IMG/VR virus record: IMGVR_UViG_3300042303_000421
Coordinates: 1 to 64,000 of that record
Reading direction: 5' to 3' (one strand)
Length of the DNA: 64,000 nt
From: a virus
The notes under the pieces were generated by a model, which searched no databases, had not been told where the DNA came from, and saw only the letters and a program-made list of their open reading frames with translations. The translations under genes were made by a program, and so were the position numbers. Positions 46,101 through 61,260 of the stretch are shown in pieces. Each line of letters begins with the position of its first letter. Position 1 is the stretch's first letter.

Positions 46101-47703
46101 AGTAGATAAACAGTTCACAGGAGTGCTTAAAATAGGTGAGCAAGGTGGTAGTATATTAAATCTTGCAGTATTTGAAGGAATGACCGAAAAAGAAAAGATT
46201 AATTACTTTAAAAAGAATACCATATATGTAGGTAATAAAGGAATGGTTAAACATACGGCTACTGATTTACCAGTTCATAATTTAAATCTTAAAGCTAGAA
46301 GTAAAGGTGAAGTATTTTTACTTATACCTATGATTAATGGTGAAATGTTTCCTTTAAAATTAAACACTAATAAATTAAGTGATGAAAAAGCATCAGCTAC
46401 ATTAGATTTAATTATATTACGTTCAAGATTATTAAGTCAAAAACAAGATATGACTTTTGATGAATTACAAGAGTATATTACTAATAATGATTTAGGAGCT
46501 ATTCAAACTGAATTTGATTTTGTTAAACGTGAAGAAGATAATATTGATCAAACTTTAGAAAGACTTATTAACTTTATAGTATTTTCTCAAAATACAAATA
46601 CTAAGACTAGATTAGAATTAAAACCTAATGGTGTTTTATTATTAGGAGAATTACTTCATAAATTTAATGATAAATTACCTGCATTTGATGGAGATAAAGT
46701 AAAACATTATTATTATACTAATGAAATACTTGAAAGTTTATCTGGTGTACAAAGACAATCATTAATTGATTATTTAAAATATAAAAGACATAATGTATTA
46801 ATTACTAAAGATGGTAATGCTACATTTAATAATGATGCTTATATTAAATATTTATTAGGAACTGAAACAGGTTATTCTGTTTTATCTACTAACGCAATAA
46901 CTAATGAACCAACATTTCAAGGTTATTCAAATATTTATTTAAGTCAATCAGTTACTAATAAAACAGAACCTAAAATTAAAAAAGCTGAAGATACTGATGA
47001 TACACAAAGTCTTTTAGATAGTCTTAATTATGGTAATATTGTAGAAGAACCTATAACTACTCAATCTGAAATAGAAGCTAAAAAAGCTGATATAGAAAGA
47101 AGATTAGGAATAAAATTACCTGTAAAAAACACTTCTCTACCTGTATCTTCTAAAACATGGGGAGATAGAAAATCTCTTGCAAATCAATTATCTTCTGAAT
47201 TAAAAGGAGTAGTTGAAAGAGGTGTATCTATGCAAGAATGGTTAGATAAAGGATATGGAAGACAATTAGCTACTTGGACAGACGAAACTATTATTGAGTT
47301 TTTAGAAGTAGCTGATATAGAAAAAAGAAGACAAGAAAAGTTAGAAGCTTATAAATTAAAAAAAGACGGAACTCCTAAAAATGAAGCAGAATTAACCAAA
47401 GTATATGCAATAGATGATGTTAGAATTATCAATGCTAAATATGATGCAGAACTAAAAACATTAGAAACTCAAAATGTTCTTCCTACAGCTAATATTAATC
47501 AACCAGTATTAACTACTGAAAGTGAATTAGTTACCAAATTTAATAGTTTATCAGAAACTCAACAACTTGAAACAATTGAAACTTTAGCTGAAAAACTTAA
47601 TAAACCTATTGATTCTTTAGTTGGTGAATCATTCATTGAAATGTTTAAAGAATTAACAAAAGGTGTAGAAAATAATAAAATTATAAAAATATGTGGATTT
47701 TAA
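43150..47703 (+). CDS. Large virion ejection protein
   Basis: 1517 aa; Gly/Ala hydrophobic helices, SEG..EEG.Q motif, long coiled coils. Confidence 0.65.
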   Translation: MEKEKEFDPFKVLSKSTYDQKFTSPMSKTTESGSGDMYGYNVGLGSSKYDKNLSPTTSIEFNDFVDSLEDYRSKNQPWIDKAGAGLARVGLKVGVELAKMPGFIGGAIAAPFAEEGQGWETFVNNSWVKSLNNLNQKINNEYLPVYVKKAVAEGNLWANITSIDFWATDGADGIGYIVSMMAPGAILKGIGVGNKLAKLGANEKLLKVLNRADPLLSAQKGDVITATIANTMFESAAEAGNAMENFDKTKDTFIQSQLSKGLTAEEAEQTFTEQKARLGRDIFIANTAILMGPNALQSNMLWGRTVNKTATEVFDKKGTLLQNVINPQIYKKVSRRLGDIGKATISEGLWEEGMQMSVEHMFTNSAKKGQLTNNMFNDFNLGELGDAYLNTISSTEGLKAMFLGAFLGGGMQAFSGGKQDIRDRKATQSLLDVAHTSIDSYYKALTENVYNEDGSVNVTKARSKVAALKNLETLDEMYQNALAKGDFEVLEELRDIAGSQLAMGFIMNDKLGLEVLRKHLEESTQLEEVLQKEQELGNKVSKKDIVERVMSKATLMENALSNFQKFAPSLYNPTFKDESLTEEVKQQKTQEFRKVLAQNYLTNKVVKDIYNKKIKELEKDKAQILADLGYSSSVNLDLDNYTVDIEQANKVDKDVLETSDERLRKVTEDLKELKEEFQQVDKLDKLFWNKERIQKDFDKYNNQVKKDEKAVTPEKLEQYDSVLGEIAEIESIKELESYARNLKEEYQTNPVILDKLAEHKVALETALELKKAKEEADVIQEDEEQFEQDEVIGTTTVNTDTKSATDITIVTDLETLQNSETSEVEDTIEDPNNFLELKENTNPEFSDKNQSAARIISTYQDTGESIPGLESFVEYEKETRNKTNDKVTFSLGDLTQQKQDQLMSSILDKLKNDGTLNDKQIEMLENYLLIKVTLSNGTKSASSFIDSMSHPNPDIVTRETLPLRKAIIKALVDNQGSFEGIEGKVDKQFTGVLKIGEQGGSILNLAVFEGMTEKEKINYFKKNTIYVGNKGMVKHTATDLPVHNLNLKARSKGEVFLLIPMINGEMFPLKLNTNKLSDEKASATLDLIILRSRLLSQKQDMTFDELQEYITNNDLGAIQTEFDFVKREEDNIDQTLERLINFIVFSQNTNTKTRLELKPNGVLLLGELLHKFNDKLPAFDGDKVKHYYYTNEILESLSGVQRQSLIDYLKYKRHNVLITKDGNATFNNDAYIKYLLGTETGYSVLSTNAITNEPTFQGYSNIYLSQSVTNKTEPKIKKAEDTDDTQSLLDSLNYGNIVEEPITTQSEIEAKKADIERRLGIKLPVKNTSLPVSSKTWGDRKSLANQLSSELKGVVERGVSMQEWLDKGYGRQLATWTDETIIEFLEVADIEKRRQEKLEAYKLKKDGTPKNEAELTKVYAIDDVRIINAKYDAELKTLETQNVLPTANINQPVLTTESELVTKFNSLSETQQLETIETLAEKLNKPIDSLVGESFIEMFKELTKGVENNKIIKICGF

Positions 47704-47750: not shown

Positions 47751-50700
47751 ATGAAATGTAAAAGAATAGCTTACACAGGAAAAGCTGAATCAATATTATT
47801 TGATACTATTTATGATAAAATAGCAAATCAAAATGAAAAAGTAGCAGAAGAACTGTTTGCATATTTTGGTAAAGAATCATTTATTGAAGATTTTGGAGAT
47901 TATCTTCAAGATTATAAAAATAATAAATATGATTCTAACAGAATTGATGAGAATGGTGAACCTGCTTTATTTTATGATGACACAGCTAAAAAACATTATT
48001 ATTTAAATAAAAATAATGAAAAAGTATATTTTCCTTTAGTTGATAGAGGTTTACGTGCTATTTATAGTTATAAACAAATTGCTAAAATTAAATCAAGATT
48101 AGCTTTAAATTATTTTAAAAATTCTGGATTAGATTTTAATAATATTGAATTTAGTGAAGGTGAAAGTTTACCAAATTTAAGAAATTTTATTATTAAAGAA
48201 ATTACAGATAAAGCTACAGAACTTAAAGAACAAGGTGGAGTGAGTTTACTTAAAGCACGAAGCCTTGAACGTTCTTTAAAATATGTTGATGAATTAGTTG
48301 AAAATGTAGAAAACTTTTTTAGAGAGTTATCTATTGAAATTATAGAAAATGAAGAAGATACTTCTTTTTTAGAAGAAGAAGGTAGAGATCCATCATTTAA
48401 TCAACATTCTGCAGAAAGAAATACTAAAGATAATATTAGTGCTAATGTTAAACTTAGATTAAGTTTATTAGAAGACCCTAATACCTTAGATCCTATATGG
48501 AATGAACCTACTTTTTTAGATAGAGATATGGTTTATTCTACATTACAAAGTGTATTGTCTAATGAAATTGCTTTACCTAGTGAAGATTTGTTTGAAAATT
48601 ATAAAACATATTTAAGTAGAGTTCAAGATAAAAAACCATACTTAAAAGGATTATTAGAATATTTAAATAAAGTTACATCTGAAAATCAAAAAAGTGAATT
48701 TGTTCAAGCATTTAATCTTATTAAAAATAATCATATAGTAACTCAATTTGAAATTACTAAACGTGTTGTTAATGAAGAAACTGGTGAAACAGAAATGTTT
48801 GTAGAACATAGAAGTTTACCTATTTCAGATACAGGTTCTAAGATTACAGTAGTTAAAGATGCTTGGGATATTAATTTTCAAAATAATTTTTTAACTGCTG
48901 ATAATACATTAAAAACAGGTTCAATTGAAAGATTGAATAAAGCTTCTAATGTATTAAAACAATATTTTAAAGATAGTGAGTTATTAACAGAAGATAATGT
49001 AGAAGGATTTGAAATTTTAGCAAATAAATCAATTAAATTTTTAGAAACATTAGGTGTTAATTTAACTAAAGAGGGATTTGATAATTTTATAGACAATTTT
49101 GGTAAAGATATTACATTTAATGATAGATTAAAAAACTTAAAAACTTTAATTAATCAAACAGAATATGTTGTAAATGGTATTAAAACTAAATATAGTTATA
49201 AATCAGAAGATTACTCTAGTTTTATAGGATTGTCTCAAACACTTACAAAGTTAGCTTCATCTGAAGCTTTCTTTTTAAATGAAGGTTCTGATGCTACAAT
49301 TGTTACATCTTCTTCTACTGGTAAATCAAAACAAAAATGGATTTATTCATATCCTTCTTATGTATCAACAAAAGTTAAACAATGGAAAAAAAATCCTAAA
49401 TTATTATTAGATTTGTATAAATCTGGTAATTATCAATTAGGTTCTTTCTATATGGGTGTTTTAACAGGTACTATTAATAATAAAGGTGAAAAATTAAATC
49501 TTGAAGAAAAAGATCAATTAGAACTATCTAAGAAGATTTTAGAAGGATTAGATGTTGCTATTATGAATCAAATGTCTTCTGATAGTGAGTACAAAGAAAC
49601 TACCAATTTATCTTATAAAGATTATTTAGTAGATTATGTTAATAAAGTACTTAAAGAAGATGATTTTATTAGAACAACAACTCCTGCAGATAAAACAACA
49701 GAATTACAAATTAAAACAGGAATTAGATTAAATTCATTTAATGGTTTAAATCAAGATAAAAAAATTAATATTAGACCTAGAACATTAGACATATTTTTTA
49801 ACTATTTTAGTTCAGAATATAATAGAATGTTAGAAGCTAATCAAGATGTTATTAATGCTGAAACTAATCCTGAAAAATATAAATTAACACCTCATTATCA
49901 TTATCAATATGAAATTAAAGATAAAAATGGTAATAAAATTATAAATCCAAATCCTTATGATAAAAGTGGTAATGCTTTCAAATCACAATATTTTGAAAAG
50001 TTGTCACCAAATTCAAAAGGTCAAACTAATTTAGAAGACCAAATTACTAATTTATTATATGATAATAAAGGTAATTTTAACTTTCAGAAATTAACAAGAG
50101 AAAGTAGTGAAGAATTAAATAGTTTATTTAATCAATATATTACTACTAACTTAAGATCTCGTATTGAACAAACAATTAGTTATTTACAAGCTAATGAAGT
50201 ATTTATTAGAAATAAAGAAGGTATAATTGTACCTAATAAAATAGATTCTAAAATATTAACAAGTGGAGCATATAGAAACGTATCAGCAGCTCAAAAAGCA
50301 ATTGCGTTTGCTACTGACTTTATAATTAACGGTTTAGTTTCTAATGTTGAATATTCTAAAATGTTTACAGGTGATGTAGCATTTTATAAGAATATGGTAG
50401 ATTATAAAAAACGTGTACCTGCATCATATACTGATGGTTTGCAATTAAGAATAACTCAAGGTAATGAATTTTTTAATATTGCTACTATTGAAAGTGTATA
50501 TCGTAAATCACCTTTTTATGACTTACTTGTTGAAAGTTTAAGTGAAGAAGGAGCTAGACCTTATGAAAATATTAACTCTGCTGATGCTCAAGCATGGATT
50601 ACACCTAAACGTTGGAAATTTTTAATTCAAGCATTAGGTAAATGGACTAAAGTTCATGATGAAGTTTATAAAAAAATGATTTCTAATAATATTGAACAAT

Positions 50701-53700
50701 ATACTGAAAAAGAATTAAAAGTTGCAGCACAACCTTTAAAAGGTGTGTATTTCTTTAGAGATAATAGTGGTAAACCTACATATCTTAAATATTCACAAGC
50801 AGTATTAACTAAATCATTAATACAAGATTCTGATTTAGAAAAAGTATTCAATCAGATGGAAGTTGATAATGTTGATGAATTGATTACTTTTGATGGTGTT
50901 AAAGTTGGAGCAATTGAACCAACTAAAATACATGATGAAAATGGTAATGTTGTTCAAGATATTAAATATAATGTACAAACACTATCTAATTATGGTTGGA
51001 AACTTCAACAAGATTTACCAACTAAAACATATAAAGATACTGATGTAGGTTCTCAGATTCAAAAAAATATATTTGCAGGATTATTACATTTACAAAACGA
51101 TACTAATTTTGAATTAGATGGTCAATTAGTAAGTGGTAAATATGTTAAAGATGAAATTGTTAAAACTATTACAGGTTTAACTAATCAAGGTTTAGAATCT
51201 CTTAAAAAAGAATTTAAAATTGATGATGATTTTAGAATTGGAGATATTTCAGGATTTTATAATGCATTAATTTCTGAATTACAAAAACGTGGTGGTTCTG
51301 AAAATGTTATTAAAGCATTACAATCAGAAGTTACAATTGTAGGTATTCCTCAATCATCTGAAAAGTTATTTAATATGTTTGCTTCAATTATGAATAGTAG
51401 ACTTGTTAAAATTAAAACTAATGGTGGTTCTTTTATTCAAATGAGTAACTTTGGTTTAAATAAATCTGAAGCTGATTCTAAAGGTGTTATATGGCATCCT
51501 GAAGCATTATCTACAGTACATGAACCACATATATATATTCATCCTGAAACATTAAGACCAACAGTAAGACCTGGTGGTGTTTTAATATCAGGAAGTTTTA
51601 TAGCTAAATATATTCCTAATTGGAAAAGTTATGATGAAGTAGAATTATTTGTAGGTAAAGATGGTAAACCACCAATTATAGATAAAAAAATACAAGATAA
51701 CATTATAGGTTATCGTATTCCTAATCAGGGTTTAGCTTCTAATGATGCTTTACAAATTGTAGGTATATTACCTGAAACATCTGGAGATACTATTGTAGCT
51801 TATACAGGTATTACTACTAAAACTGGTTCAGATTTTGACGTTGATAAAATGTATATAATGTTTCCATCTTATAATAAAAAAGACAAACAACTTATATATA
51901 AAGAAAATGATTTAGGTAACAGATTAATAGAATTATATAAATCTGTGTTAACACATCCTGAAGTTTATAAATCTGTAATGAAACCTATTGATATTGAATT
52001 TATTAAAAATGAAATTAATACTTTATTTCCAGAAACAGATTCTGTATTTATGAGTCATTTTGACCCAGAAGTAGATTTAAAACTTAGATATTATTTTTTA
52101 GGTGGTAAAGCTGGTGTTGGTCAAGAAGCTAATGCTTTAGTTGATATTAGTAGAGAAGGTAAACTTTCTTTAAATGATATTAAATATATAACTTGGGGTC
52201 ATCATAACACTGAAGGTGAAAGTGCTTTTGATTTTGAATATTCTGAAGAATTATCTGATAAAGACTTAGATTATTATGTTAAACAAATAGTTAAAAGTAC
52301 TGCTACTCAAAAAGAAATTGATGAATTTAAAAATGAATTACGTAAAGTAAAAGTAGGTGATTCATTAACAGCAATTCTTAATGCGTTTGTGGATATTGCA
52401 AAAGACCCATATATATCTAAAGGTAACTGGACAACAGCTACAACTAATATAGGTAATCTTTTATTACGTATTGGTGCACATCCTTTATATGTTGTTAACT
52501 TTTTAGCTAATCCTGTAATTGCAGAATATATTGAGTATTTAAAATCTAAAGAAGGTATTACTAATACTGAAAAAGATTTAGGTTCATTAGATAGTTTTAA
52601 AAAGTTTAAAAAACATATTGTTAAAACAGCTTTAAATGCTTCTACACCTGAAAGTTCAAATACTTTATTGGGTAATTTATATTTAGATTATTATAAAAAT
52701 TTTAATATTGATTGGCAAAAAGAAAAGCTTTCTCAAGATCTTAAAAATAATTTTGTAACTAAAGAACAATATGATAAAGAAATAATTAAATTAGATAATT
52801 CATTTAATACTTCAAAAACAAAAGTTAAAAAACTTTTAAAAGTTTCAGATGAAGAAATTACAAATATTATTAATTTAATGAATCAACAACATTCTAAAGT
52901 ATTTTTACATGAAAAATATAGTGTATTTAATAAAGATAGATTTGATTTAGAATATTTTAGAAATCAAGTAACTACAACTAAACCAGATTCTGAGTTTAGA
53001 ATGAATATTTTAAATACTTTTAAAGAATTAAATGAGTTTAGTAAGAATGTTAGAGAAAATGTAATGGTTTCTAAACTAGATACTGATGGTATGGGTAAAG
53101 ATCATAATAAATTATTCACAATATTTAATATGATACAAATTATTAATGATAAAGTTGAAAATAATGTACCAGGAGCTATTAAAGGCTTTAATAGTAAATT
53201 TGAAGGTACAACACTAGAAGCATATTATAATAGCTTAAAATGGGTTAAAAACGTTGTAGAAAGCAATCCTTTATTATTTCCTACAGGTACAATTCAAACT
53301 AGACAACAATTTAATGAAATTTCTCAAGATGTCTATAGTAGTTTATTAACTAATGAAGAAATGAGTAATGATTTAAGTAGAGAATATAATTCTTATTTAA
53401 TGGAACAATTCTTTAATATTACTAAAGAAGAAAAGTTAGATTTAATTGATAATTTACCTAATAGATTTAAAGAATTTAAAGAAGCTAATAAAGATAAGTA
53501 TTTTATACTTGATGAATTAACATTAGATATTCCTAAAAGTAAAAAACGTAAAGCTATTATTTCTTTAACTAATAGAAAGAAATCTAAAGCATATGAAAAA
53601 ATATTTACAGATTCTTGGAGAGATTTATTTATAGATAATCCTACATTAGCAGAAGATTTAGTTAAATATTCTTTTGTTACTTCAGGATTTAAAATGAATG

Positions 53701-55733
53701 CAACACAATTTTATACATACATACCATTTGAATATTTTGTTCAAAATCAAATTAATAGTAAAGTTAATGATATTATAAATAATAACACATTTGACTTTTT
53801 AGATAAGTTTTACTTAAATAAATTAGAAAATAAAAAATATGTTAAAAAAGTATTTGATAATAATTTAAATTTAGCAATTGGTACTAATGTTGTTAAAAAA
53901 GACAATGGTTTTAAATTAGAAAAAGGTTCTAAGTATTATGTAGAATTAGAAGTTAAAATTCCAGATAATGCTCCTGCTGATTTTGTACCAAAACTTAAAT
54001 ATTATAAATTGGTTGGTTTTAATAAAAATGAAGACGGATTATATGTTAGAATTAATAATACACCATTATCTTTAAATAAACGTAAATTAACAGACTATAG
54101 TGATAATATATTTGATGATGTTATTAATGAAGAAACACAATACATTAAATCACAAGTAATATTTGATAGAAATATGAATAAAATAAATGATATTGTTGAT
54201 GATGTTATTGAAACTACAGAAGTTCAACCTCAAGTTCAACCTCAATCTAATAAAATATTATTTAAAGAAGAACTAACATTAGGATATAAAAATAGAACTA
54301 TTAAAAATGCTAGTGCAGATGCTACAATAGCAATAGCAATAGATTTTAATAGTGCTGGAGAAAGATTAACTAAATCATCTGTATTAAGTCAAAATAAAAA
54401 ATATATTTCTTTAGATGCTAGTAATTTAACTGTTACACAAGAAAGAGTTGATAAAATAGTAGAACAATTAAACTCTGCTAAAGAATATACTTCTGAAAAT
54501 ATAACTTCTTTAAAACCAAATGAAGTATTTGTATTTGGTAGTAATGCAGAAGGAGTTCATGGAAAAGGTGCTGCATTATTAGCTAAAACTAATTTTGGAG
54601 CTAAACAAAGTCAATCAGAAGGATTACAAGGACAATCTTATGCAGTTATTACAAAGAAAAACTGGAGAGTTGAAAAATCTTCTACATTAGAAGAAATTGG
54701 TAAAGGACTACAAGATATGTTACTATTTGCTAAACAAAATCCAGACAAGAAATTTTTAGTTACTAAACTTGGTAGTTCATTAGCAGGATATTCAGTAGAA
54801 GAAATTAAAGAATTATTTGAGAAATTAAAAAATATTATTCCAAATAATGTTATTTTACCTAAAGAATATGAAATTAGAGGAATAACTTTAAATATTGCTG
54901 GTAATGGTATTTATACTATGAAAGGTAAATATACTCAGCAGCAAGTTGATGATTTTACATATAATTTATTAAAAGCTGTTATTGAATCTCCAAATCTTAA
55001 AACTAAAATAGAAAGTATTAGAAGTGGTGGTCAAACAGGTTTTGATGAAGCAGGTACAAAAGCAGGTATTAAATTAGGTTTACCAACATTAACTTTAGCT
55101 CCTAAAGGTTGGACTTTTAGAGATATAACAGGTAAAGATATTTCTAATGAACAACAGTTTAAAGCTAGATTTGGTGAAGTAATTACTCAACAACCTCAAT
55201 TAGTTGAAAATATTTATAATCAATTAGGAAATAAAACAGTTTCTAATAATGTAGAAATATTAGATTGGAAAGACTTAAAAGAATATGATGCACCAATTGA
55301 AAAAGATCTTGAAGGAAATTTAGAATTTATTATTTCTACCAGAATACCTAAAGTTTTTAATCATTTTGGAAATCCTTTTAGTCATGATCCAGCAGGTAAA
55401 ACTCAAGGATTAATTAAAACAGAAACTATAAAAGAAGCTGTTGAAAAATATATTGATTGGGTTATTAATTCAAAAGATGATAGAGCTGAATGGATTAGAA
55501 AACAAATTCAATCAGGTAAATTAAAAGGTCTACCTATTTTGTACTATAAAGAATTAAATCAACCTTCTCACGCTACAGCTTTAGATTATTTAATAAATAA
55601 ACATAATTGGAATATTGAAACAAATAATCAACCATCTCAATTATCTTTATTTCCAGAATTATCTGAACAAGAATTTAATAACTTAACTGAAGAAGAACGA
55701 GCTACAATTTTGTGGCAAAAAAATAATTGTTAA
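47751..55733 (+). CDS. Virion-packaged DNA-dependent RNA polymerase with C-terminal accessory domains
   Basis: YRIPNQ and GSDFDVDK (DxDxD at 51831-51845), D..KR, AD.Q, KVG motifs like the crAss-like phi14:2 gp66 family. Confidence 0.92.
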   Translation: MKCKRIAYTGKAESILFDTIYDKIANQNEKVAEELFAYFGKESFIEDFGDYLQDYKNNKYDSNRIDENGEPALFYDDTAKKHYYLNKNNEKVYFPLVDRGLRAIYSYKQIAKIKSRLALNYFKNSGLDFNNIEFSEGESLPNLRNFIIKEITDKATELKEQGGVSLLKARSLERSLKYVDELVENVENFFRELSIEIIENEEDTSFLEEEGRDPSFNQHSAERNTKDNISANVKLRLSLLEDPNTLDPIWNEPTFLDRDMVYSTLQSVLSNEIALPSEDLFENYKTYLSRVQDKKPYLKGLLEYLNKVTSENQKSEFVQAFNLIKNNHIVTQFEITKRVVNEETGETEMFVEHRSLPISDTGSKITVVKDAWDINFQNNFLTADNTLKTGSIERLNKASNVLKQYFKDSELLTEDNVEGFEILANKSIKFLETLGVNLTKEGFDNFIDNFGKDITFNDRLKNLKTLINQTEYVVNGIKTKYSYKSEDYSSFIGLSQTLTKLASSEAFFLNEGSDATIVTSSSTGKSKQKWIYSYPSYVSTKVKQWKKNPKLLLDLYKSGNYQLGSFYMGVLTGTINNKGEKLNLEEKDQLELSKKILEGLDVAIMNQMSSDSEYKETTNLSYKDYLVDYVNKVLKEDDFIRTTTPADKTTELQIKTGIRLNSFNGLNQDKKINIRPRTLDIFFNYFSSEYNRMLEANQDVINAETNPEKYKLTPHYHYQYEIKDKNGNKIINPNPYDKSGNAFKSQYFEKLSPNSKGQTNLEDQITNLLYDNKGNFNFQKLTRESSEELNSLFNQYITTNLRSRIEQTISYLQANEVFIRNKEGIIVPNKIDSKILTSGAYRNVSAAQKAIAFATDFIINGLVSNVEYSKMFTGDVAFYKNMVDYKKRVPASYTDGLQLRITQGNEFFNIATIESVYRKSPFYDLLVESLSEEGARPYENINSADAQAWITPKRWKFLIQALGKWTKVHDEVYKKMISNNIEQYTEKELKVAAQPLKGVYFFRDNSGKPTYLKYSQAVLTKSLIQDSDLEKVFNQMEVDNVDELITFDGVKVGAIEPTKIHDENGNVVQDIKYNVQTLSNYGWKLQQDLPTKTYKDTDVGSQIQKNIFAGLLHLQNDTNFELDGQLVSGKYVKDEIVKTITGLTNQGLESLKKEFKIDDDFRIGDISGFYNALISELQKRGGSENVIKALQSEVTIVGIPQSSEKLFNMFASIMNSRLVKIKTNGGSFIQMSNFGLNKSEADSKGVIWHPEALSTVHEPHIYIHPETLRPTVRPGGVLISGSFIAKYIPNWKSYDEVELFVGKDGKPPIIDKKIQDNIIGYRIPNQGLASNDALQIVGILPETSGDTIVAYTGITTKTGSDFDVDKMYIMFPSYNKKDKQLIYKENDLGNRLIELYKSVLTHPEVYKSVMKPIDIEFIKNEINTLFPETDSVFMSHFDPEVDLKLRYYFLGGKAGVGQEANALVDISREGKLSLNDIKYITWGHHNTEGESAFDFEYSEELSDKDLDYYVKQIVKSTATQKEIDEFKNELRKVKVGDSLTAILNAFVDIAKDPYISKGNWTTATTNIGNLLLRIGAHPLYVVNFLANPVIAEYIEYLKSKEGITNTEKDLGSLDSFKKFKKHIVKTALNASTPESSNTLLGNLYLDYYKNFNIDWQKEKLSQDLKNNFVTKEQYDKEIIKLDNSFNTSKTKVKKLLKVSDEEITNIINLMNQQHSKVFLHEKYSVFNKDRFDLEYFRNQVTTTKPDSEFRMNILNTFKELNEFSKNVRENVMVSKLDTDGMGKDHNKLFTIFNMIQIINDKVENNVPGAIKGFNSKFEGTTLEAYYNSLKWVKNVVESNPLLFPTGTIQTRQQFNEISQDVYSSLLTNEEMSNDLSREYNSYLMEQFFNITKEEKLDLIDNLPNRFKEFKEANKDKYFILDELTLDIPKSKKRKAIISLTNRKKSKAYEKIFTDSWRDLFIDNPTLAEDLVKYSFVTSGFKMNATQFYTYIPFEYFVQNQINSKVNDIINNNTFDFLDKFYLNKLENKKYVKKVFDNNLNLAIGTNVVKKDNGFKLEKGSKYYVELEVKIPDNAPADFVPKLKYYKLVGFNKNEDGLYVRINNTPLSLNKRKLTDYSDNIFDDVINEETQYIKSQVIFDRNMNKINDIVDDVIETTEVQPQVQPQSNKILFKEELTLGYKNRTIKNASADATIAIAIDFNSAGERLTKSSVLSQNKKYISLDASNLTVTQERVDKIVEQLNSAKEYTSENITSLKPNEVFVFGSNAEGVHGKGAALLAKTNFGAKQSQSEGLQGQSYAVITKKNWRVEKSSTLEEIGKGLQDMLLFAKQNPDKKFLVTKLGSSLAGYSVEEIKELFEKLKNIIPNNVILPKEYEIRGITLNIAGNGIYTMKGKYTQQQVDDFTYNLLKAVIESPNLKTKIESIRSGGQTGFDEAGTKAGIKLGLPTLTLAPKGWTFRDITGKDISNEQQFKARFGEVITQQPQLVENIYNQLGNKTVSNNVEILDWKDLKEYDAPIEKDLEGNLEFIISTRIPKVFNHFGNPFSHDPAGKTQGLIKTETIKEAVEKYIDWVINSKDDRAEWIRKQIQSGKLKGLPILYYKELNQPSHATALDYLINKHNWNIETNNQPSQLSLFPELSEQEFNNLTEEERATILWQKNNC

Positions 55734-55734
55734 T

Positions 55735-58700
55735 ATGAATTGTATAAACATAAACGACTCAAAGTATAAAGAGTTATTAGAACAAACAAAATTAAATCCA
55801 TTAATCCTGAAGGCTAGAATTTCTATCTTTCAGGATAAAAATGGTTTAGAATCATTTCCTAAATTAGAAGATGTTATTCAATCTAATGAAGTTAATCAAA
55901 GTTTAAAATCTGTTGATATATTATCTTCTGATAAAGCAAAACAAATTTTTGAAAAAGGTAAAAAGTCTAATTGGGATTTAAATAAAATTTTAACAGAGCT
56001 GCAGATCCCTAAAGATCAAAAACAATTAATATTGGATTTAGATAAAACTAATAGAGAAGAAATCATTACAGACCTATTAGCTAAATATAGTTATACTATT
56101 GAGATTAATACTGCTAAAGAACAAATTAAAACTGGTACAAAAAAAGTTCAAGGTTCTCCTATTAAGTATTATTCAAAATCTGAAAATAGATATTATAGAG
56201 ATACTGAAGAATTAGGATGGATTAGTTCTGATGAAAATAATAAAAATCAAGAAGTAGATGTTCAAACACCAGAAGATTTAGAACCAATTGAATTTGATAC
56301 TTATAATATTGATACTTTTTCAGAATTAGAAACTAAACATTACTCTAACCTAACAGTTCCAGGTGGTACTAATTATACAGAAAATGAAATATCTACTCCA
56401 TTAATTACACCTAGTATTAAAGGTCATGCTCAATTTAGTACTGATAAAGGTATAGGTTGGTTTAGAAGTGACGAGCAGCAATCTAATAATGACTTAGAAG
56501 AACAAAGAGAAGAAGAAGAATATCAGATAGCTAATAATCCAAACTATGTAAAAGGAAGTATTCAATTTGAAAAGGGAGAGGGCTCTAAAACTCGTAGAAT
56601 ACTAGAAGTACAATCAGATTTATTTCAGAAGGGTAGAGATAAAGATTATTTGCCTAAATATCCTTTTAAAAGCAATGATAATAAATTTCTTCAACTTCTA
56701 AACAAAGATAATAATTGGGTAACATTCTTTGTTAAATCTATTATACAAGATAGTGTTAAGAAAGGATATGAAAAAATATTATTTCCTTCTGGTAATACAG
56801 CTAGTAAAGTGGAAGGTCATACTACTTTAGAAGAGTTTAAGAAACAGAAAGAAGATAGGTTAAAAGAGCTTGAGGATAAAGTTAATAAAGGTAGATATGT
56901 ACTTACTGATAATACTGGGTTTCCAATGGGTATAGCTCCAATAGATTCTGACATCAATGTATTAAAAAGTAATAATCCAACATTAAAAATTGAAAAAGAG
57001 TCTTTGACGCAAAAAGAATTAGATGATACAAATAATGAAATAAACCAACTTAAACAAGAACTTGAAAGAGTAGAAGGACCAGAAGGATTTGGTGCATTAA
57101 AACCTATCTATAACTTCTATGAGAACACTGTAAAGAATGTTCTTAATAAACAATATGGTAAAGAAAATGTAAAACAAGTTACTGATGAATATGGTAATAC
57201 TTGGAATGAATTAACTTTAGAAGAAAGTAGAGATACTTCAACTATTTTATTTAATAAAAAAGATTTAAATGATTTTGTTGGAGATAATTCAAAACCTTTT
57301 TTTCCAGAAAGTACAACAAATCAACCTCAAGTAAATAATAGATTTCAAATAAATAAAGAATTATTATTTAATGATAAAAATATTAATAATTCTTTTAAAG
57401 CTAAAGATGTATTACAAAATATAATTAATTCTAATTTAGAATTTTCAGATGCTGGTAATAATTTAGTATTTAAAGCAATGAATGTTTTAAATCGTTCTAA
57501 TAGTAGAGTTAAAGTTATTAGTCAAGAACAATTTGATAAAATGACTGAAAATTCTGAAGGGAACGGAACTGCTGTAATGGCTTATGAATCAGAATTAAAT
57601 GTTATTTATACGACAGAAAATTCTTTAAGTATTTTTACAAAAGAACAAATATTAGAATCATTTTTACATGAAGTTGCTCACAATTTAAGTATTAAAGCAA
57701 TTATTAATCCTGTAACTTTTGAAGAAATACAATTTAATGAATTAATTAAAAAAGCATTTGAACAATATAAATATTTAGGTAAAAATTTAAAAGGTTCCAA
57801 AAGCTATGGTTTTACAAATGAAAAAGAATTTGTAGCAGAATTATATTCTAATGAAGAATTTCAAAATGAAATTAAATCATTAGATAAAAACTTTTGGCAA
57901 CAATTTAAAGACGCTATTAGAAGATTATTTGGATTAACTAAATCATTACAAAATAATGAATTAATTAATAGTATTTTATTAATTGAAAATGTTGAAAAAT
58001 TTATTGAAACTAGTCAACAATCTTTAGACGGTTTAGCTAGAAATGATTATTCAAACTCTTTTAATAACATAATGTTTAAAAAAATAGAACAACCTAAAGA
58101 AATTGAATTAGATACTTTAGATAAACAATTAAATTATACTATTGAAAAAGCGTTAGATAAAATTGATGCAATTATTCGTAGAACCAAAAAATCTAAAAAT
58201 TCTAAAAACAAACAAGATAATGAAGCTTTTGTAAAATCTTTTACTGAATTATTTAAAGAAATTGAAACTTTAGAAAATACTAATAAATGGCAAGCTGTTA
58301 ATGCATACGTTACTTCATTTTCAAAAACAGTATTTCATTTAAATCAAATGTTAAAAACTAAATTATATAATAAAGATACTGAAACATTTAATAAAGATAT
58401 AAGTTCTGAAGAAATGTTAGACTTATCTTATAGATATGAAGAATATCTTACTGCGTATGATTTATTAGAAGATATTAAAAAGTTATTACAAACAAGTGAA
58501 ACTGATGAATTTGTTACTAAACAAAATCAGATAGAAATAAATAAAATTAAAGATATTTTAGCTAATTTAACTAAAGATCATAATAGTTTAACTGGAATAA
58601 TATTAAATATTAAAAAAGCACATGCTGTAAAAATGATGTCTGAAGCTGATTTAAATACAGAAGTTGTTGCTAAATGGAGAAATAAATTATTTCAAGAACA

Positions 58701-61260
58701 TACTGATTTAAAAATTACAAATGAAACCAAAGAAGCTTATTTTGGTAGAATGATTGAAGGTAAATATAAAGATGAATATAATAAAGCTTTAGTTGCTAAT
58801 GCTCGTAAAATAGTTAATGATCCATCTTTTGATATTGAAAGTGTTACTCGTTCTGTTGTAGATATTTTAAACACCAATTCACCATTATTAAACATGATGT
58901 CTAATGTAATTGGTAAAATGAGAGATTCTATTATTTCCGCAGCAAGAACTAAAAATTTTGAAATAGATAAAGTTTATAAAAAATATTCTGCTGAAAAAGG
59001 TCAAAATAAACAATCTCAAATGTATAAAAATCTTGTAGAATTATCTAAATCAGATGATAGATATTATTTACATGGAGAATATTCTACAACATATTTAGAT
59101 TCATTTAATAGTTTACAACCTGTATTTAAAGCACGTAAAGAGTTAGTAGCTTTAAAATTAGCAGAAGGTTTAACTAATTCACAAATTAAAAAATTACCTG
59201 AGTATAAACTTTTAAATAAACAAATAGCAAATTGGTTTAAAGCAAACACTATTAAAGTTGATGGTATTACTTATCCAAATCCTAAATATAAAAATAAAGA
59301 ATTAACAGGTATTGAAAAAGAAACATTAGATTATTTTATTTATGAAACTGAAAAAAATGATGATTCTTATAATGGTACAGCATCTTTAATAACTTTAATA
59401 CCTGGAGCTACATTTTATAAATTACCTTCAGTTACTAAAAGTGATTTAGAACGTACATTAGAAGGTGATATTAAAGGTCAGTTTGTAGATAAATGGAAAG
59501 ATTTAAATGAAGTACGTGTTGATGATGTTAGTTATGGTGAAGCAATTAATAATAAAAATGAAGAATTACGTACTGTAAGAGTTCATTATAGAGGTAAAAT
59601 AGAATCTAAAAATCAATCATTAGATTTATTTACAGTTTATCGTAAAGAAGCTTTTAATGCAATTAATTATGCTGAAAAGAAAGAAAATGAATATAAACTT
59701 AAATTGTTTGTAGATATTGCTTCTAGTAAACAATATAAGAAACGTTCAAAATCAGGAGGATGGGCTCAAAATGTATTTGCAACTAAACAACCAGGTGTTA
59801 TTGTAGAAGGTGAATTTAGTGAAGAATTAAAACGTATTAAAGGTTTACTTGAAAGTACTGCTTATGATATTTTATCATATAATGGACAAAAAGTATTAGG
59901 TACTAATATTGAAGCAAATAAATTATCATCATTAATTAATGGTACAGCAGCAAGTATTGCAATGACAATGAACTTAGGTTCTGGTGTAGTCAACGTAATG
60001 AACGGTGTTACACAAATGTTTATTGAATCTGTTGGTGGTAGAAATTTTAAAAAAGCAGATTTATTAAAAGCTGAAGCTAATTATAGTAAAAACTTAATGA
60101 ATATTTTAGCTGATTTAAATGAACCTGTTAAAAAATCATTTCATAATCAAATGTTAGAAATGTTTGATGTATTTGGAGGTTTTGATGTTTCTACTCAAGA
60201 ATTTTTAAGAAATTCATATGCTAAGAAATTAATTTCCAAACAACAAATGAATATGTTAAATGAAATGGGTGAACATATGATGAACTCAGTTTTAACAGAA
60301 GTTATGTTAAGAGGAATTAAAGTAATGAATGAACAGCGTCAATTTATTGATAAATCAGGAAATGTTGTAGAAGAATCAAAAGCTGCTTCATTATTTGATA
60401 TGTTATCTTTAAATAAAGATGGTGTTTTAGAAATGGATAGTAAAGTTGTTTATACTCTTAAAAATTTAGATTCTAAATATCATGAAAGTGGTAAATATCA
60501 TATTAATTATGTTATTAAGAAAAAAGCTCATGATATATTTGGTGTTTATGATCCATTAATGAAAGCTGAAATAGCTAAACATTGGTGGGGTAAAACAGTT
60601 TTAATGTTTAAGAACTTCTTTTTATCAGGACTTAAATACAGATATCAAGGTATTAGTAAATCTTTAAAGAAAAAAGAAGATTTAACTGATGATGATATAG
60701 TATTTAATAACGCTGAACAGGAGTTCACAGAAGGTACTTATGTTACTTTTATTAGATTTGTACGTAATGTTGTTTTTCCTGCATTAAAAGGGCTACAATT
60801 AGCTCATATGAGTGATGGTTATAATAAGTTAACAGACTATGAAAAAGCTAATTTAAGAAAAACTACATTAGAAGTAGGTTTAACTATGGTATTGTTACCG
60901 ATGTTAGGTTACTTATTAGCATCTCTTGGTGGAGATGATGATGATAAACCATATTTTGCATTATATGTATTTAGAAGATTAGAGTCAGAACTTTCACAAT
61001 ATAGAAATCCTATAGAGTTAAATAGAATGATTCAAAATCCTGTAGCAGCTAATAGATTTATTCAAAATTCATTAAATGCTTTAGGTGAAATAATTACACC
61101 ACTTAATTTTAATCCTGGAAATAATGAATATTTGTTTGATTATTTAAGTGAAGATTCTAAAGGTAAAAATAAAGTAGTTAAATCTATTAAGAAAATTACA
61201 CCATTTTATGCTCAATTTCAAAAACCATATAGAGAAATGCATAATCTTATAAATAAATAA
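55735..61260 (+). CDS. Large polyvalent virion protein with zincin-like metallopeptidase domain
   Basis: HEVAH (57667-57681) plus downstream EFVAE; hydrophobic C-terminal region. Confidence 0.7.
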   Translation: MNCININDSKYKELLEQTKLNPLILKARISIFQDKNGLESFPKLEDVIQSNEVNQSLKSVDILSSDKAKQIFEKGKKSNWDLNKILTELQIPKDQKQLILDLDKTNREEIITDLLAKYSYTIEINTAKEQIKTGTKKVQGSPIKYYSKSENRYYRDTEELGWISSDENNKNQEVDVQTPEDLEPIEFDTYNIDTFSELETKHYSNLTVPGGTNYTENEISTPLITPSIKGHAQFSTDKGIGWFRSDEQQSNNDLEEQREEEEYQIANNPNYVKGSIQFEKGEGSKTRRILEVQSDLFQKGRDKDYLPKYPFKSNDNKFLQLLNKDNNWVTFFVKSIIQDSVKKGYEKILFPSGNTASKVEGHTTLEEFKKQKEDRLKELEDKVNKGRYVLTDNTGFPMGIAPIDSDINVLKSNNPTLKIEKESLTQKELDDTNNEINQLKQELERVEGPEGFGALKPIYNFYENTVKNVLNKQYGKENVKQVTDEYGNTWNELTLEESRDTSTILFNKKDLNDFVGDNSKPFFPESTTNQPQVNNRFQINKELLFNDKNINNSFKAKDVLQNIINSNLEFSDAGNNLVFKAMNVLNRSNSRVKVISQEQFDKMTENSEGNGTAVMAYESELNVIYTTENSLSIFTKEQILESFLHEVAHNLSIKAIINPVTFEEIQFNELIKKAFEQYKYLGKNLKGSKSYGFTNEKEFVAELYSNEEFQNEIKSLDKNFWQQFKDAIRRLFGLTKSLQNNELINSILLIENVEKFIETSQQSLDGLARNDYSNSFNNIMFKKIEQPKEIELDTLDKQLNYTIEKALDKIDAIIRRTKKSKNSKNKQDNEAFVKSFTELFKEIETLENTNKWQAVNAYVTSFSKTVFHLNQMLKTKLYNKDTETFNKDISSEEMLDLSYRYEEYLTAYDLLEDIKKLLQTSETDEFVTKQNQIEINKIKDILANLTKDHNSLTGIILNIKKAHAVKMMSEADLNTEVVAKWRNKLFQEHTDLKITNETKEAYFGRMIEGKYKDEYNKALVANARKIVNDPSFDIESVTRSVVDILNTNSPLLNMMSNVIGKMRDSIISAARTKNFEIDKVYKKYSAEKGQNKQSQMYKNLVELSKSDDRYYLHGEYSTTYLDSFNSLQPVFKARKELVALKLAEGLTNSQIKKLPEYKLLNKQIANWFKANTIKVDGITYPNPKYKNKELTGIEKETLDYFIYETEKNDDSYNGTASLITLIPGATFYKLPSVTKSDLERTLEGDIKGQFVDKWKDLNEVRVDDVSYGEAINNKNEELRTVRVHYRGKIESKNQSLDLFTVYRKEAFNAINYAEKKENEYKLKLFVDIASSKQYKKRSKSGGWAQNVFATKQPGVIVEGEFSEELKRIKGLLESTAYDILSYNGQKVLGTNIEANKLSSLINGTAASIAMTMNLGSGVVNVMNGVTQMFIESVGGRNFKKADLLKAEANYSKNLMNILADLNEPVKKSFHNQMLEMFDVFGGFDVSTQEFLRNSYAKKLISKQQMNMLNEMGEHMMNSVLTEVMLRGIKVMNEQRQFIDKSGNVVEESKAASLFDMLSLNKDGVLEMDSKVVYTLKNLDSKYHESGKYHINYVIKKKAHDIFGVYDPLMKAEIAKHWWGKTVLMFKNFFLSGLKYRYQGISKSLKKKEDLTDDDIVFNNAEQEFTEGTYVTFIRFVRNVVFPALKGLQLAHMSDGYNKLTDYEKANLRKTTLEVGLTMVLLPMLGYLLASLGGDDDDKPYFALYVFRRLESELSQYRNPIELNRMIQNPVAANRFIQNSLNALGEIITPLNFNPGNNEYLFDYLSEDSKGKNKVVKSIKKITPFYAQFQKPYREMHNLINK

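What the first reader, a model, noticed from the sequence alone, without database searches (positions are those of the whole stretch)
54225..55733. Virion RNAP carries nested nucleotide-processing cassettes: macro-like domain inside a SLOG domain, then DUF4326-like
After the polymerase and a QPQVQPQ linker: a SLOG/YpsA-like domain (Y..RT..NA.ADATIA.A.DF...GE.LT; LNIAGN; IRSGGQTG.DEAG) is interrupted by a 127-aa macro-like domain (VFVFGSN..G.HG.GAA..A...FGA...G.QG.SYA...F.VT..G..LAG). A CTAAAGAATAT direct repeat flanks it (54478-54488 and 54859-54869, in frame). A GNPF...AVE.Y..W...L....HA..L domain follows. SLOG and macro folds act on nucleotides and ADP-ribose. Inference: counter-defence enzymes injected with the RNAP, acting before any phage gene expression.
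Basis: partly seen in the sequence, partly recalled or inferred. Interest (0 to 1): 0.75.

Follow-up and report, generated by a model that had tools for sequence, protein, structure and literature searches.

The report
Nested ADP-ribose-handling cassette on virion polymerase
The giant RNA polymerase that this crAss-like phage most likely packs into its particle ends in three small nucleotide/ADP-ribose-handling domains, one inserted inside another; they are probably ready-made tools against ADP-ribose-based host defences, a new variant of a known phage strategy, and no activity has been tested.

Summary
Observation confirmed, with corrections. ORF 47751-55733 (2660 aa) is a phi14:2 gp66-type virion RNA polymerase (PDB 6vr4, E 1e-207; DFDVD at aa 1361).

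Its last 500 aa hold three passenger domains:
- A cpYpsA-type SLOG domain in two pieces (aa 2166-2243 and 2377-2475). It is circularly permuted relative to PDB 3imk.
- A macro domain (aa 2244-2376) inserted in a SLOG loop. AlphaFold pLDDT is 94.7; the best structural match is the M. tuberculosis DarG macrodomain (Z 12.4).
- A cysteine-less DUF4326 relative (aa 2485-2625). Pfam scores it below threshold, but hhalign to a bona fide member gives 95% probability.

All 99 stand-alone SLOG homologues among the 120 listed short hits lack the insert, so the nesting is real. The same loop holds other inserts in relatives.

The CTAAAGAATAT repeat is real but is not an insertion scar. Both copies encode the 'KEY' motifs at the two ends of the macro family, written in strongly biased codons.

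Of 119 giant relatives, 93 carry the polymerase core and 80 of those carry the SLOG. Module identity is about 75% against about 24% for the polymerase core, which points to swappable cassettes.

Injected counter-defence is plausible and untested. The domain combination was already described for DNA viruses (Iyer et al. 2022). This scan has also reported similar cassettes on other crAss-like genomes.

The parts
47751..55733 (+). Whole ORF, 2660 aa: virion RNA polymerase plus passenger tail
   Evidence: One open frame. phmmer to PDB 6vr4 (phi14:2 gp66) gives E 1e-207 over aa 2-2056.
51831..51845 (+). DFDVD catalytic motif of the two-barrel polymerase (aa 1361-1365)
   Evidence: Motif search. The DFDxD motif defines crAss-like virion polymerases (preprint 10.1101/2020.03.07.982082).
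54225..54245 (+). Q/P-rich linker QPQVQPQ between polymerase body and tail
   Evidence: Translation. A second Q/P spacer, QQPQ, lies within aa 2476-2484, between the SLOG and the DUF4326-like domain.
54246..54479 (+). SLOG domain, first piece (aa 2166-2243; YxxRTxxNASADATIA, GERLT)
   Evidence: Pfam cpYpsA profile positions 46-114. It aligns with the N-terminal half of 99 stand-alone SLOG proteins. A profile of these proteins matches 3imk residues 54-137.
54480..54878 (+). Macro domain of the A1S_2505 family, DarG/TARG1-like, inserted in the SLOG loop (aa 2244-2376)
   Evidence: NCBIfam NF049995 scores 119 bits and PHROG 2072 gives E 8e-31. The AlphaFold model has pLDDT 94.7. Foldseek top hits are DarTG/DarG/TARG1, best E 4.8e-4. 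VIA-align gives DarG 5m3i Z 12.4, rmsd 2.7 over 126 residues.
54879..55175 (+). SLOG domain, second piece (aa 2377-2475; LNIAGN, SGGQTGFDEAG, APKGW, FKARF)
   Evidence: PHROG 10774 profile positions 77-165. It is contiguous with the first piece in stand-alone homologues. The Gly-loop block matches 3imk residues 7-41, which shows the permutation.
55203..55625 (+). Cysteine-less DUF4326-like domain (aa 2485-2625; HFGNPFSHDP, AVEKYIDW, ILYYKELNQPSHATALDYLIN)
   Evidence: 377 clusters of relatives were found. Pfam DUF4326 scores below threshold (E 0.17), with 12 of 37 relatives at E<=1. AlphaFold pLDDT is 90.7. BFVD top hits are mostly DUF4326 proteins, best E 0.011. hhalign to a bona fide DUF4326 protein gives 95.2% probability, E 2.5e-8.
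55626..55730 (+). Conserved C-terminal peptide ending in the last-residue cysteine (QLSLF...NLTEEERATILWQKNNC)
   Evidence: Similar ends are seen in many relatives, whichever domain precedes. 96 of 120 giant relatives have a Cys in the last 6 residues.
43150..47703 (+). Upstream neighbour: phi14:2 gp67 homologue (virion protein)
   Evidence: BLASTP E 1e-11. Its single Cys lies 3 residues from the end.
55735..61260 (+). Downstream neighbour: phi14:2 gp65 homologue with an HExxH motif (LHEVAHN)
   Evidence: BLASTP E 8e-108, 27% identity over 1315 aa. Its single Cys is at residue 3.

Best explanation
The gene encodes the virion RNA polymerase of a phi14:2-like crAss phage. A cassette of three passenger domains has been added to its C-terminus:
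- a SLOG nucleotide-binding domain of the cpYpsA type, in a further circular permutation;
- a DarG/TARG1-like macro domain plugged into a length-variable loop of that SLOG;
- a cysteine-less relative of DUF4326.
The short C-terminal peptide shared by these cargo proteins follows the cassette.

Most likely mechanism (inferred). The whole chain is packed into the capsid with the other cargo proteins and is ejected into the cell with the DNA. The three domains would then act at time zero on ADP-ribose chemistry used by host defences.
- The macro domain would remove ADP-ribose from DNA (DarT-type marks) or from small ADP-ribose derivatives.
- The SLOG would bind such nucleotides or cleave their base-ribose bond.
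- The DUF4326-like domain would bind or process the phosphoribose end.

Shown here: the identity and boundaries of the domains, the nesting, the conservation of ligand-loop residues, and the recurrence and shuffling of the modules on polymerase homologues.

Inferred: packaging of the tail, catalysis, and the targets.
For: Carrier. It is homologous to virion-packaged gp66 and syntenic with gp67 and gp65 homologues and a crAss cargo-protein-1 gene. phi14:2 g065-g067 are annotated as virion proteins from MS/MS.

Domains..

Nesting..

Conserved ligand-binding elements. The macro family keeps invariant G23, N25, H30, G33, T61, K62, G106 and Y107. The T-K pair aligns to DarG model positions 78-79. 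The SLOG family keeps invariant R22, T23, G134, Q136 and D140.

Recurrence. 690 giant proteins match the tail. Of 119 examined, 93 hold the polymerase core. Of those 93, 80 carry the SLOG, 19 the macro and 15 the DUF4326-like domain, mostly C-terminal to the core. Module identity is about 75% against 24% for the core.

Retained terminus. The C-terminal Cys peptide sits after the passengers, which argues that they lie inside the functional protein.

Literature.
- SLOG, Macro and DUF4326 are often fused in DNA viruses and are predicted to counter ADP-ribose signals (PMC9503650).
- The polyvalent-protein concept (PMC5512222).
- gp66 transcribes single-stranded DNA well (10.1101/2020.03.07.982082).
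- From my own knowledge, not checked here: single-stranded DNA is the substrate that DarT modifies.
Against: There is no direct evidence that residues 2166-2660 are in the virion or are active.

The DUF4326-like domain has Y, Y/K and S where a bona fide member has three cysteines, so it may not be catalytic.

The macro scores far below the DarG equivalog cut-off (20 against 250 bits), and a profile search of the PDB by sequence found no macro.

The authors of the gp66 work suggest that fused forms are cleaved (10.1101/2020.03.07.982082), so the tail could be removed.

The nested SLOG-macro unit was not folded as a whole.
Confidence: 0.6

Rival explanations
1. The passenger domains serve the phage's own early transcription or RNA metabolism rather than counter-defence. 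They might process NAD-capped 5' ends made by the polymerase. They might also act in RNA repair, on ADP-ribose 1''-phosphate or 2'-phosphate products, as in tRNA-splicing chemistry.
For: The domains are covalently tied to an RNA polymerase. The Poa1p ADP-ribose-1''-phosphatase macro is the second-best structural match (Z 10.9). Iyer et al. mention molecules derived from NAD caps as possible substrates (PMC9503650).
Against: The same modules sit on many non-polymerase carriers and exist as stand-alone phage proteins. The closest vRNAP relatives among the hits (P0021, P0089, P0071; 36-44% identity) have the SLOG only, and phi14:2 gp66 has none of the three, so they are not needed for transcription. 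The best macro match is DarG, a DNA de-ADP-ribosylase.
Confidence: 0.15
2. The domains are ligand-binding, non-catalytic modules. They would sense a nucleotide or ADP-ribose derivative and regulate the polymerase, for example by releasing its self-inhibited state, or they would sequester a host signal as a sponge.
For: The DUF4326-like domain has lost all three family cysteines. From my own knowledge, not checked here: a Cys-to-Ser change commonly turns cysteine phosphatases into substrate traps. YpsA-clade SLOG domains include non-catalytic sensors (PMC9503650). gp66 is packaged in a self-inhibited form (10.1101/2020.03.07.982082).
Against: The macro keeps the invariant T-K pair and both Gly loops. 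The modules move freely between carriers and positions, which fits autonomous enzymes better than allosteric parts of one polymerase.
Confidence: 0.12
3. The tail is cut off before or during assembly, or is made for use in the producing cell. It would then act late, or not be injected at all.
For: Fused cargo polyproteins of crAss-like phages are thought to be cleaved. The neighbouring gp65 homologue carries a zincin-type HExxH motif (10.1101/2020.03.07.982082). Q/P-rich linkers bound the cassettes.
Against: The conserved C-terminal Cys peptide that ends tail-less gp66 (phi14:2) is kept at the very end of the extended protein. Cysteine depletion typical of the cargo proteins extends through the tail. 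Cleavage after ejection would still deliver the domains.
Confidence: 0.1
4. The macro domain arrived by a transposition-like event, and the flanking CTAAAGAATAT copies are its target-site duplication.
For: The repeat is an exact 11-nt direct repeat, in frame, at both borders, and occurs only twice in the window.
Against: Both copies lie inside the macro family's own conserved end motifs. K, E and Y each use one codon in 94-96% of cases, and about 165 comparable repeats occur in the window. A third KEY at aa 2510 gives a further 11-mer repeat.
Confidence: 0.03

Closest known systems
Polyvalent proteins of phages and conjugative elements (Iyer, Burroughs, Anand, de Souza, Aravind 2017, PMC5512222), including N4-type virion RNA polymerases
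   Same: One very large virion-delivered polypeptide strings together unrelated enzymatic domains that are predicted to act at the start of invasion. The modules vary between relatives.
   Different: The carrier is the two-barrel crAss-like polymerase (gp66 type). The 2017 paper does not contain the words crAss, SLOG or YpsA. Here the passengers are NAD/ADP-ribose 'eraser/reader' domains rather than ADP-ribosyltransferases, and one domain is nested inside another.
SLOG-Macro-NADAR-DUF4326 combinations in DNA viruses (Iyer et al. 2022, Viruses, PMC9503650)
   Same: The same three domain families occur together. They were predicted to process low-molecular-weight ADP-ribose derivatives early in infection. 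That paper assigns DUF4326 to the rhodanese-phosphatase superfamily.
   Different: That paper says viral exemplars are 'typically standalone proteins', and it does not contain the word crAss. Here the domains are fused to the virion polymerase, the SLOG is a further permutation, the macro is an insert within the SLOG, and the DUF4326 relative lacks the family's cysteines.
DarG antitoxin macrodomain and human TARG1
   Same: This is the best structural match: 5m3i at Z 12.4, rmsd 2.7 A over 126 residues with 24% identity, and TARG1 at Z 10.6. A weak sequence match covers DarG model positions 78-134, including an invariant T-K pair.
   Different: The score is far below the DarG equivalog cut-off (20 against 250 bits). 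No DarT partner or DarG C-terminal domain is present. The Gly loop reads GSSLAGY, where some relatives have GCG or GCS. Activity on ADP-ribosyl-thymidine is untested.
cpYpsA / 'molybdenum carrier' SLOG family (Pfam PF12694; PDB 3imk)
   Same: The Pfam score is above the gathering cut-off. A profile hit to 3imk gives E 2e-8. The GGQTGxD Gly loop, PKG, YxxRTxxN and LNIAG motifs are shared.
   Different: The order of elements is rotated. The block that opens 3imk (residues 7-41) closes the phage domain. The phage domain tolerates 127-140-aa domain inserts, and a 263-codon one in L058, before the LNIAGN strand.
Anti-Avs ORF83, a phage SLOG/DprA-like protein (discussed in preprint 10.1101/2025.06.06.658234)
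   Same: It is a phage SLOG-fold protein with experimental anti-defence activity. Its homologues in giant viruses carry a C-terminal DUF4326.
   Different: ORF83 is described as LOG/DprA-like, not cpYpsA-like, and it is a free protein.

Membership tests
crAss-like virion RNA polymerase (phi14:2 gp66 type) | Sequence homology to gp66 over the polymerase body | tested here: met
   phmmer against 6vr4 gives E 1e-207, aa 2-2056 in four stretches. tblastn shows 33% identity to phi14:2 g066.
crAss-like virion RNA polymerase (phi14:2 gp66 type) | DFDxD catalytic motif | tested here: met
   DFDVD at aa 1361-1365.
crAss-like virion RNA polymerase (phi14:2 gp66 type) | Gene flanked by gp67 and gp65 homologues in the cargo block | tested here: met
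   A crAss_CARG1 domain lies in ORF 39615-41291.
crAss-like virion RNA polymerase (phi14:2 gp66 type) | Protein present in the virion and ejected into the host | not testable with these tools
   Known for phi14:2 by MS/MS (record annotation). No data exist for this phage or for its tail.
SLOG superfamily, cpYpsA family (PF12694) | Pfam model at or above the gathering score | tested here: met
   28.3 bits against 26.2, in two stretches.
SLOG superfamily, cpYpsA family (PF12694) | Homology to a solved member (3imk), with the Gly-rich loop and YxxRTxxN motif | tested here: met
   A profile of 43 stand-alone homologues against 3imk gives E 2.2e-8. SGGQTGFDEAG and YKNRTIKN are present.
SLOG superfamily, cpYpsA family (PF12694) | Same linear order of elements as cpYpsA | tested here: not met
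   Profile positions 4-87 match 3imk 54-137 and positions 121-155 match 3imk 7-41. This is a further circular permutation.
SLOG superfamily, cpYpsA family (PF12694) | Rossmann-like SLOG fold of the interrupted domain | not tested
The mixed alignments needed for the nested unit came out misaligned.
Macro domain superfamily | Macro fold | tested here: met
   The model has pLDDT 94.7. All 46 Foldseek PDB matches listed are macro domains or designs built on macro scaffolds. Nearly all of the 30 chains with VIA-align Z of 8 or more are macro domains, and DarG is best at 12.4.
Macro domain superfamily | Match to a sequence model of classical macro families (Pfam) or to solved macro sequences | tested here: not met
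   No Pfam macro family appeared at E<=1. A profile search of PDB sequences found no macro.
A1S_2505 family (NCBIfam NF049995) | Model score above the curated cut-off | tested here: met
   119.2 bits against 45, covering profile positions 1-109 of 109.
DarG antitoxin (NCBIfam NF048014 / PADLOC DarG) | Equivalog score, DarT partner and DarG C-terminal domain | tested here: not met
   20.4 bits against a cut-off of 250. PADLOC gives E 3.4e-4 over 57 positions only. No DarT was seen in the ORFs examined.
DarG antitoxin (NCBIfam NF048014 / PADLOC DarG) | Catalytic lysine of the DarG/TARG1 clade | tested here: inconclusive
   An invariant T-K pair (aa 2301-2302) aligns to DarG model positions 78-79. 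The identity of the catalytic lysine (K80 in DarG, K84 in TARG1) comes from memory. No residue-level structural alignment was available.
DUF4326 (PF14216) | Pfam model at or above the gathering score | tested here: not met
   13 bits against 25 (E 0.17). 12 of 37 relatives match at E<=1, best 0.006.
DUF4326 (PF14216) | Homology to a bona fide member by profile comparison | tested here: met
   hhalign of family alignment A4 against the Bacillus phage Thrax2 DUF4326 protein (Pfam E 2e-24) gives 95.2% probability, E 2.5e-8, over 73 columns.
DUF4326 (PF14216) | Fold similarity to DUF4326 proteins | tested here: inconclusive
   About half of the top 35 BFVD hits are annotated DUF4326, but the best E is 0.011. 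There is no significant PDB match: NADAR is top at Z 3.4. The nearest ESM Atlas clusters are DUF4326 at scores of 0.84-0.85.
DUF4326 (PF14216) | The three cysteines seen in the one bona fide member examined (Thrax2 protein: CCFCK...ACH) | tested here: not met
   They align with LYYKELNQPSH. The cysteines are replaced by Y, Y/K and S, and the His is kept. YYKEL..PSHATAL is nearly invariant in the subfamily.
Polyvalent proteins (Iyer et al. 2017) | Several unrelated enzymatic domains in one large protein of a phage, with a variable set of modules among relatives | tested here: met
   Relatives also carry NADAR, ART-PolyVal, AlkB, Zeta-toxin and helicase domains (Pfam column).
Polyvalent proteins (Iyer et al. 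2017) | Delivery into the host with the DNA | not testable with these tools
   Inferred only from homology of the carrier to gp66.

The most novel reading that the evidence does not exclude
The loop before the LNIAGN strand of this permuted SLOG domain is a reusable docking slot into which crAss-like phages plug interchangeable effector domains. Here the insert is a DarG-type macro. Elsewhere it is a DUF4326-like domain, an RNase H-like domain, or one of three unannotated insert types.

On this reading the SLOG would act as a ligand sensor that gates the inserted enzyme. A DNA de-ADP-ribosylase riding on a polymerase that reads single-stranded DNA would strip DarT marks from the template as early transcription starts.
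Probability: 0.15. Interest if true: 0.8.

Novelty: new variant of a known kind. Interest (0 to 1): 0.55.

Why it matters
crAss-like phages are among the most abundant viruses of gut and marine Bacteroidota, yet how they get past host defences in the first seconds of infection is largely unknown.

If the polymerase carries ready-made ADP-ribose erasers and readers into the cell, that is pre-expression counter-defence, and it is directly testable against DarTG, Thoeris and related systems.

The nesting shows a concrete route by which cargo proteins gain functions: insertion of whole domains into permissive loops. The modules are highly conserved (about 75% identity on carriers whose polymerase cores are only about 24% identical), which points to a shared pool of exchangeable cassettes.

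The cysteine-free passengers and the conserved terminal cysteines may reflect constraints on proteins that have to pass through the tail.

Tried and rejected
1. Target-site duplication reading of the CTAAAGAATAT repeat. Rejected.

2. One alignment for folding the nested SLOG-macro unit. MAFFT placed the stand-alone SLOG rows on the macro insert (A2). With half-domain rows taken from 80 IMG/VR loci it stacked the fragments on one region (A5). The nested unit was therefore not folded, and the two jobs went to the macro and the DUF4326-like domain.

3. Profile of the macro family against PDB sequences. Only chance-level hits such as cofilin appeared. The fold search was needed.

4. Foldseek and VIA-align of the DUF4326-like model against the PDB. 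Nothing was significant: the best Foldseek E was 2.3, and the best VIA-align hit was NADAR at Z 3.4. This does not show that the fold is new.

5. Drawing bona fide DUF4326 or DarG sequences from related genomes. The control genomes gave no DarG above the cut-off. A DUF4326 protein was taken from Bacillus phage Thrax2 instead.

6. Pfam on the other inserts in the SLOG loop. No family was found apart from a weak NrS-1 head-domain hit.

7. PHROG and Pfam on the polymerase body and its neighbours. No families were found except crAss_CARG1, a virion structural protein and a homing endonuclease.

8. Literature searches for 'crAss-like' with macro domain, SLOG or ADP-ribose, and for a cysteine feature of cargo proteins. 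Nothing relevant was found. This covers the held library only.

Full report
**Context**

The window is part of a 79,654-base IMG/VR virus record with about 25% G+C.

ORF 47751-55733 encodes 2660 aa. Residues 2-2056 match the crystal-structure sequence of Cellulophaga phage phi14:2 gp66, the virion RNA polymerase of a crAss-like phage, at E 1e-207. The DFDxD catalytic motif is present as DFDVD at aa 1361.

The neighbours are homologues of phi14:2 gp67 (upstream, E 1e-11) and gp65 (downstream, E 8e-108, with an HExxH motif). ORF 39615-41291 carries the Pfam crAss cargo-protein-1 domain.

In phi14:2 these three gene products are annotated as virion proteins from MS/MS. The gp66 preprint shows that gp66 is delivered to transcribe early genes, and that it transcribes single-stranded DNA efficiently (10.1101/2020.03.07.982082).

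**The tail**

After a QPQVQPQ linker, the last 502 aa give these matches:
- Pfam cpYpsA above its gathering score, in two stretches.
- PHROG 10774 in two stretches.
- PHROG 2072 and NCBIfam A1S_2505_Nterm (119 bits against a cut-off of 45) on the segment between those stretches.
- A weak DarG match.

**Nesting**

A search for short relatives returned 99 stand-alone SLOG proteins of about 177-200 aa among the 120 listed hits. In these the two halves are 2-29 aa apart, mostly 2-5 aa.

With residues 2244-2376 removed, the window's SLOG aligns end to end with them. The junction lies in the loop ...LNS(V)-NAK-TLNIAGN, and that loop varies in length among the stand-alone proteins. The macro domain is therefore a true insertion into the SLOG domain.

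**Permutation**

A profile of the stand-alone proteins hits PDB 3imk, a cpYpsA or 'molybdenum carrier' protein, at E 2.2e-8 in two pieces. Profile positions 4-87 match 3imk 54-137, and positions 121-155 match 3imk 7-41 (also seen with the single sequence).

The Gly-loop block (SGGQTGxD...PKG) that opens 3imk therefore closes the phage domain. From memory of the YpsA sequence, this would be a third rotation of the same three elements. I could not test the YpsA order with the tools.

**The inserted domain**

Stand-alone members of the family begin M(R/K)EYTPENI and end LPKEYEVR.

An AlphaFold model built from 22 family members has pLDDT 94.7. Foldseek against the PDB returns only macro domains or macro-based designs. 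DarTG, DarG and TARG1 lead, with a best E of 4.8e-4. VIA-align puts the M. tuberculosis DarG macrodomain first (Z 12.4, rmsd 2.7 A, 126 residues, 24% identity), ahead of Poa1p at 10.9 and TARG1 at 10.6.

The family keeps the two Gly-rich loops and an invariant T-K pair. That pair aligns with DarG model positions 78-79. From memory, the catalytic lysine of DarG and TARG1 lies in that region.

Sequence models of classical macro families do not detect this domain.

**The third domain**

The conserved unit is aa 2485-2625. phmmer over 1.84 billion representatives finds 377 clusters, mostly inside giant proteins.

Pfam DUF4326 is below threshold (13 against 25 bits) but recurs in 12 of 37 relatives. 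The AlphaFold model has pLDDT 90.7. It has no significant PDB match. About half of the top 35 BFVD hits are annotated DUF4326, with a best E of 0.011, and the nearest ESM Atlas clusters are DUF4326.

The decisive test was hhalign of the family alignment against a bona fide DUF4326 protein of Bacillus phage Thrax2 (Pfam E 2e-24). It gives 95.2% probability and E 2.5e-8.

In that alignment GNPFSH, EA(V/I)EKY..W and LKGK are shared. The member's CCFCK...ACH aligns with LYYKELNQPSH, so the three cysteines are replaced by Y, Y/K and S. YYKEL..PSHATALDYLIN is nearly invariant in the subfamily.

This is a cysteine-less sister group of DUF4326, and its catalytic competence is open.

**The direct repeat**

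CTAAAGAATAT is exact at 54478 and 54859. Both copies encode x-K-E-Y, which is the macro family's own N- and C-terminal motif.

K, E and Y each use one codon in 94-96% of cases. About 165 distinct direct repeats of 11 nt or more, spaced 50-600 nt apart, occur in the window. The repeat is therefore not a scar of insertion.

**Distribution**

The tail matches 690 proteins of 1463-4655 aa. I examined 119 of them:
- 93 contain the polymerase core (query aa 850-1400).
- Of those 93, 80 carry the SLOG, 19 the macro and 15 the DUF4326-like domain.
- The passengers lie mostly on the C-terminal side of the core, in varying order.

Median identity to the window is 75-76% for the SLOG and macro modules, against 24% for the polymerase core. 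The hit list was selected by tail similarity, so the module figures are biased upward, but the contrast within the same proteins remains.

The closest vRNAP relatives among the hits (P0021, P0089, P0071; 36-44% identity) carry only an uninterrupted SLOG. phi14:2 gp66 has none of the three domains.

In annotated crAss genomes:
- The macro lies near the C-terminus of the Kolpuevirus 'frurule' polymerase.
- It lies at the N-terminus of the cr112_1 polymerase.
- A SLOG lies at the end of a 4460-aa cr10_1 protein.

**Insertion hot spot**

Six giant relatives and two IMG/VR loci have inserts at the same SLOG loop, 127-140 aa in most and 263 codons in L058:
- a DUF4326-like domain (P0011);
- three unannotated sequence types (P0014; P0020/P0029/P0032/L053; P0042);
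- an RNase H-like segment (L058).

In P0113 a macro is inserted inside a DUF4326-like domain. Several other relatives are split at the same point of that domain.

**Comparison with the literature**

Iyer et al. [quoted passage not shown] They predict processing of ADP-ribose derivatives early in infection. They state that such viral domains are typically stand-alone, and the paper does not mention crAss.

The polyvalent-protein paper (PMC5512222) supplies the concept but has no SLOG or crAss content. A preprint notes an anti-Avs phage SLOG protein whose giant-virus homologues carry DUF4326.

I found no paper in the held library that links crAss-like polymerases with these domains.

Earlier notes of this scan report permuted SLOG, macro-like and cysteine-less DUF4326 modules on polymerases of other crAss-like genomes. 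I reached the same points independently here. The nesting is the feature particular to this window.

**Verdict**

The domain calls are supported. The injected counter-defence reading is the best explanation (about 0.6) but is untested.

I class it as a new variant of a known kind: a polyvalent-type NAD/ADP-ribose cassette on a new carrier, with domain-in-domain architecture.

Noticed in passing
window 43150-47703, 47751-55733, 55735-61260; L089 (phi14:2 g067-g065): The three cargo proteins are almost free of cysteine except at their ends. The gp67 homologue has one Cys, 3 residues from its end. The polymerase has two: C3 and the last residue, C2660. The gp65 homologue has one, C3. phi14:2 shows the same pattern. 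In 120 giant relatives, 96 have a Cys in the last 6 residues and 52 of 117 have one in residues 2-7, with a median of one interior Cys in about 3560 aa. An independent set gave 59 of 82. One possible reading is end-to-end linkage or anchoring of cargo that must otherwise stay disulfide-free in order to unfold.
   Followed up: partly
P0011, P0014, P0020, P0029, P0032, P0042; L053:1087-1497; L058:727-1515: The SLOG loop before LNIAGN hosts at least five other kinds of insert in relatives. The one in L058 looks like RNase H and contains two in-frame stops, which may mean a recoded stop codon in that contig.
   Followed up: partly
P0113 aa 2499-2733; several hits with two stretches split near query position 96: The DUF4326-like domain is itself a host for inserts, after the WVINS helix. 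In P0113 a macro domain is inserted there.
   Followed up: no
window 38612-39550: A GIY-YIG-type homing endonuclease gene sits between the large virion structural gene (34432-38505, PHROG 28748) and the cargo genes.
   Followed up: no
window 55735-61260: The gp65 homologue is about 420 aa longer than phi14:2 gp65, mostly at its N-terminus (its residue 559 aligns with residue 175 of gp65). No family was found for the extra part.
   Followed up: no
window 54225-54245 and 55176-55202: Short Q/P-rich spacers (QPQVQPQ, and QQPQ within aa 2476-2484) bound the passenger cassettes. They could be flexible linkers or protease sites.
   Followed up: no
Pfam column; Other polymerase-type giant proteins with these modules also carry NADAR, ART-PolyVal, AlkB-type dioxygenase, Zeta-toxin/AAA_33 kinase, PIF1-type helicase and DUF7831 domains. 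The passenger repertoire is therefore much wider than in this window.
   Followed up: no
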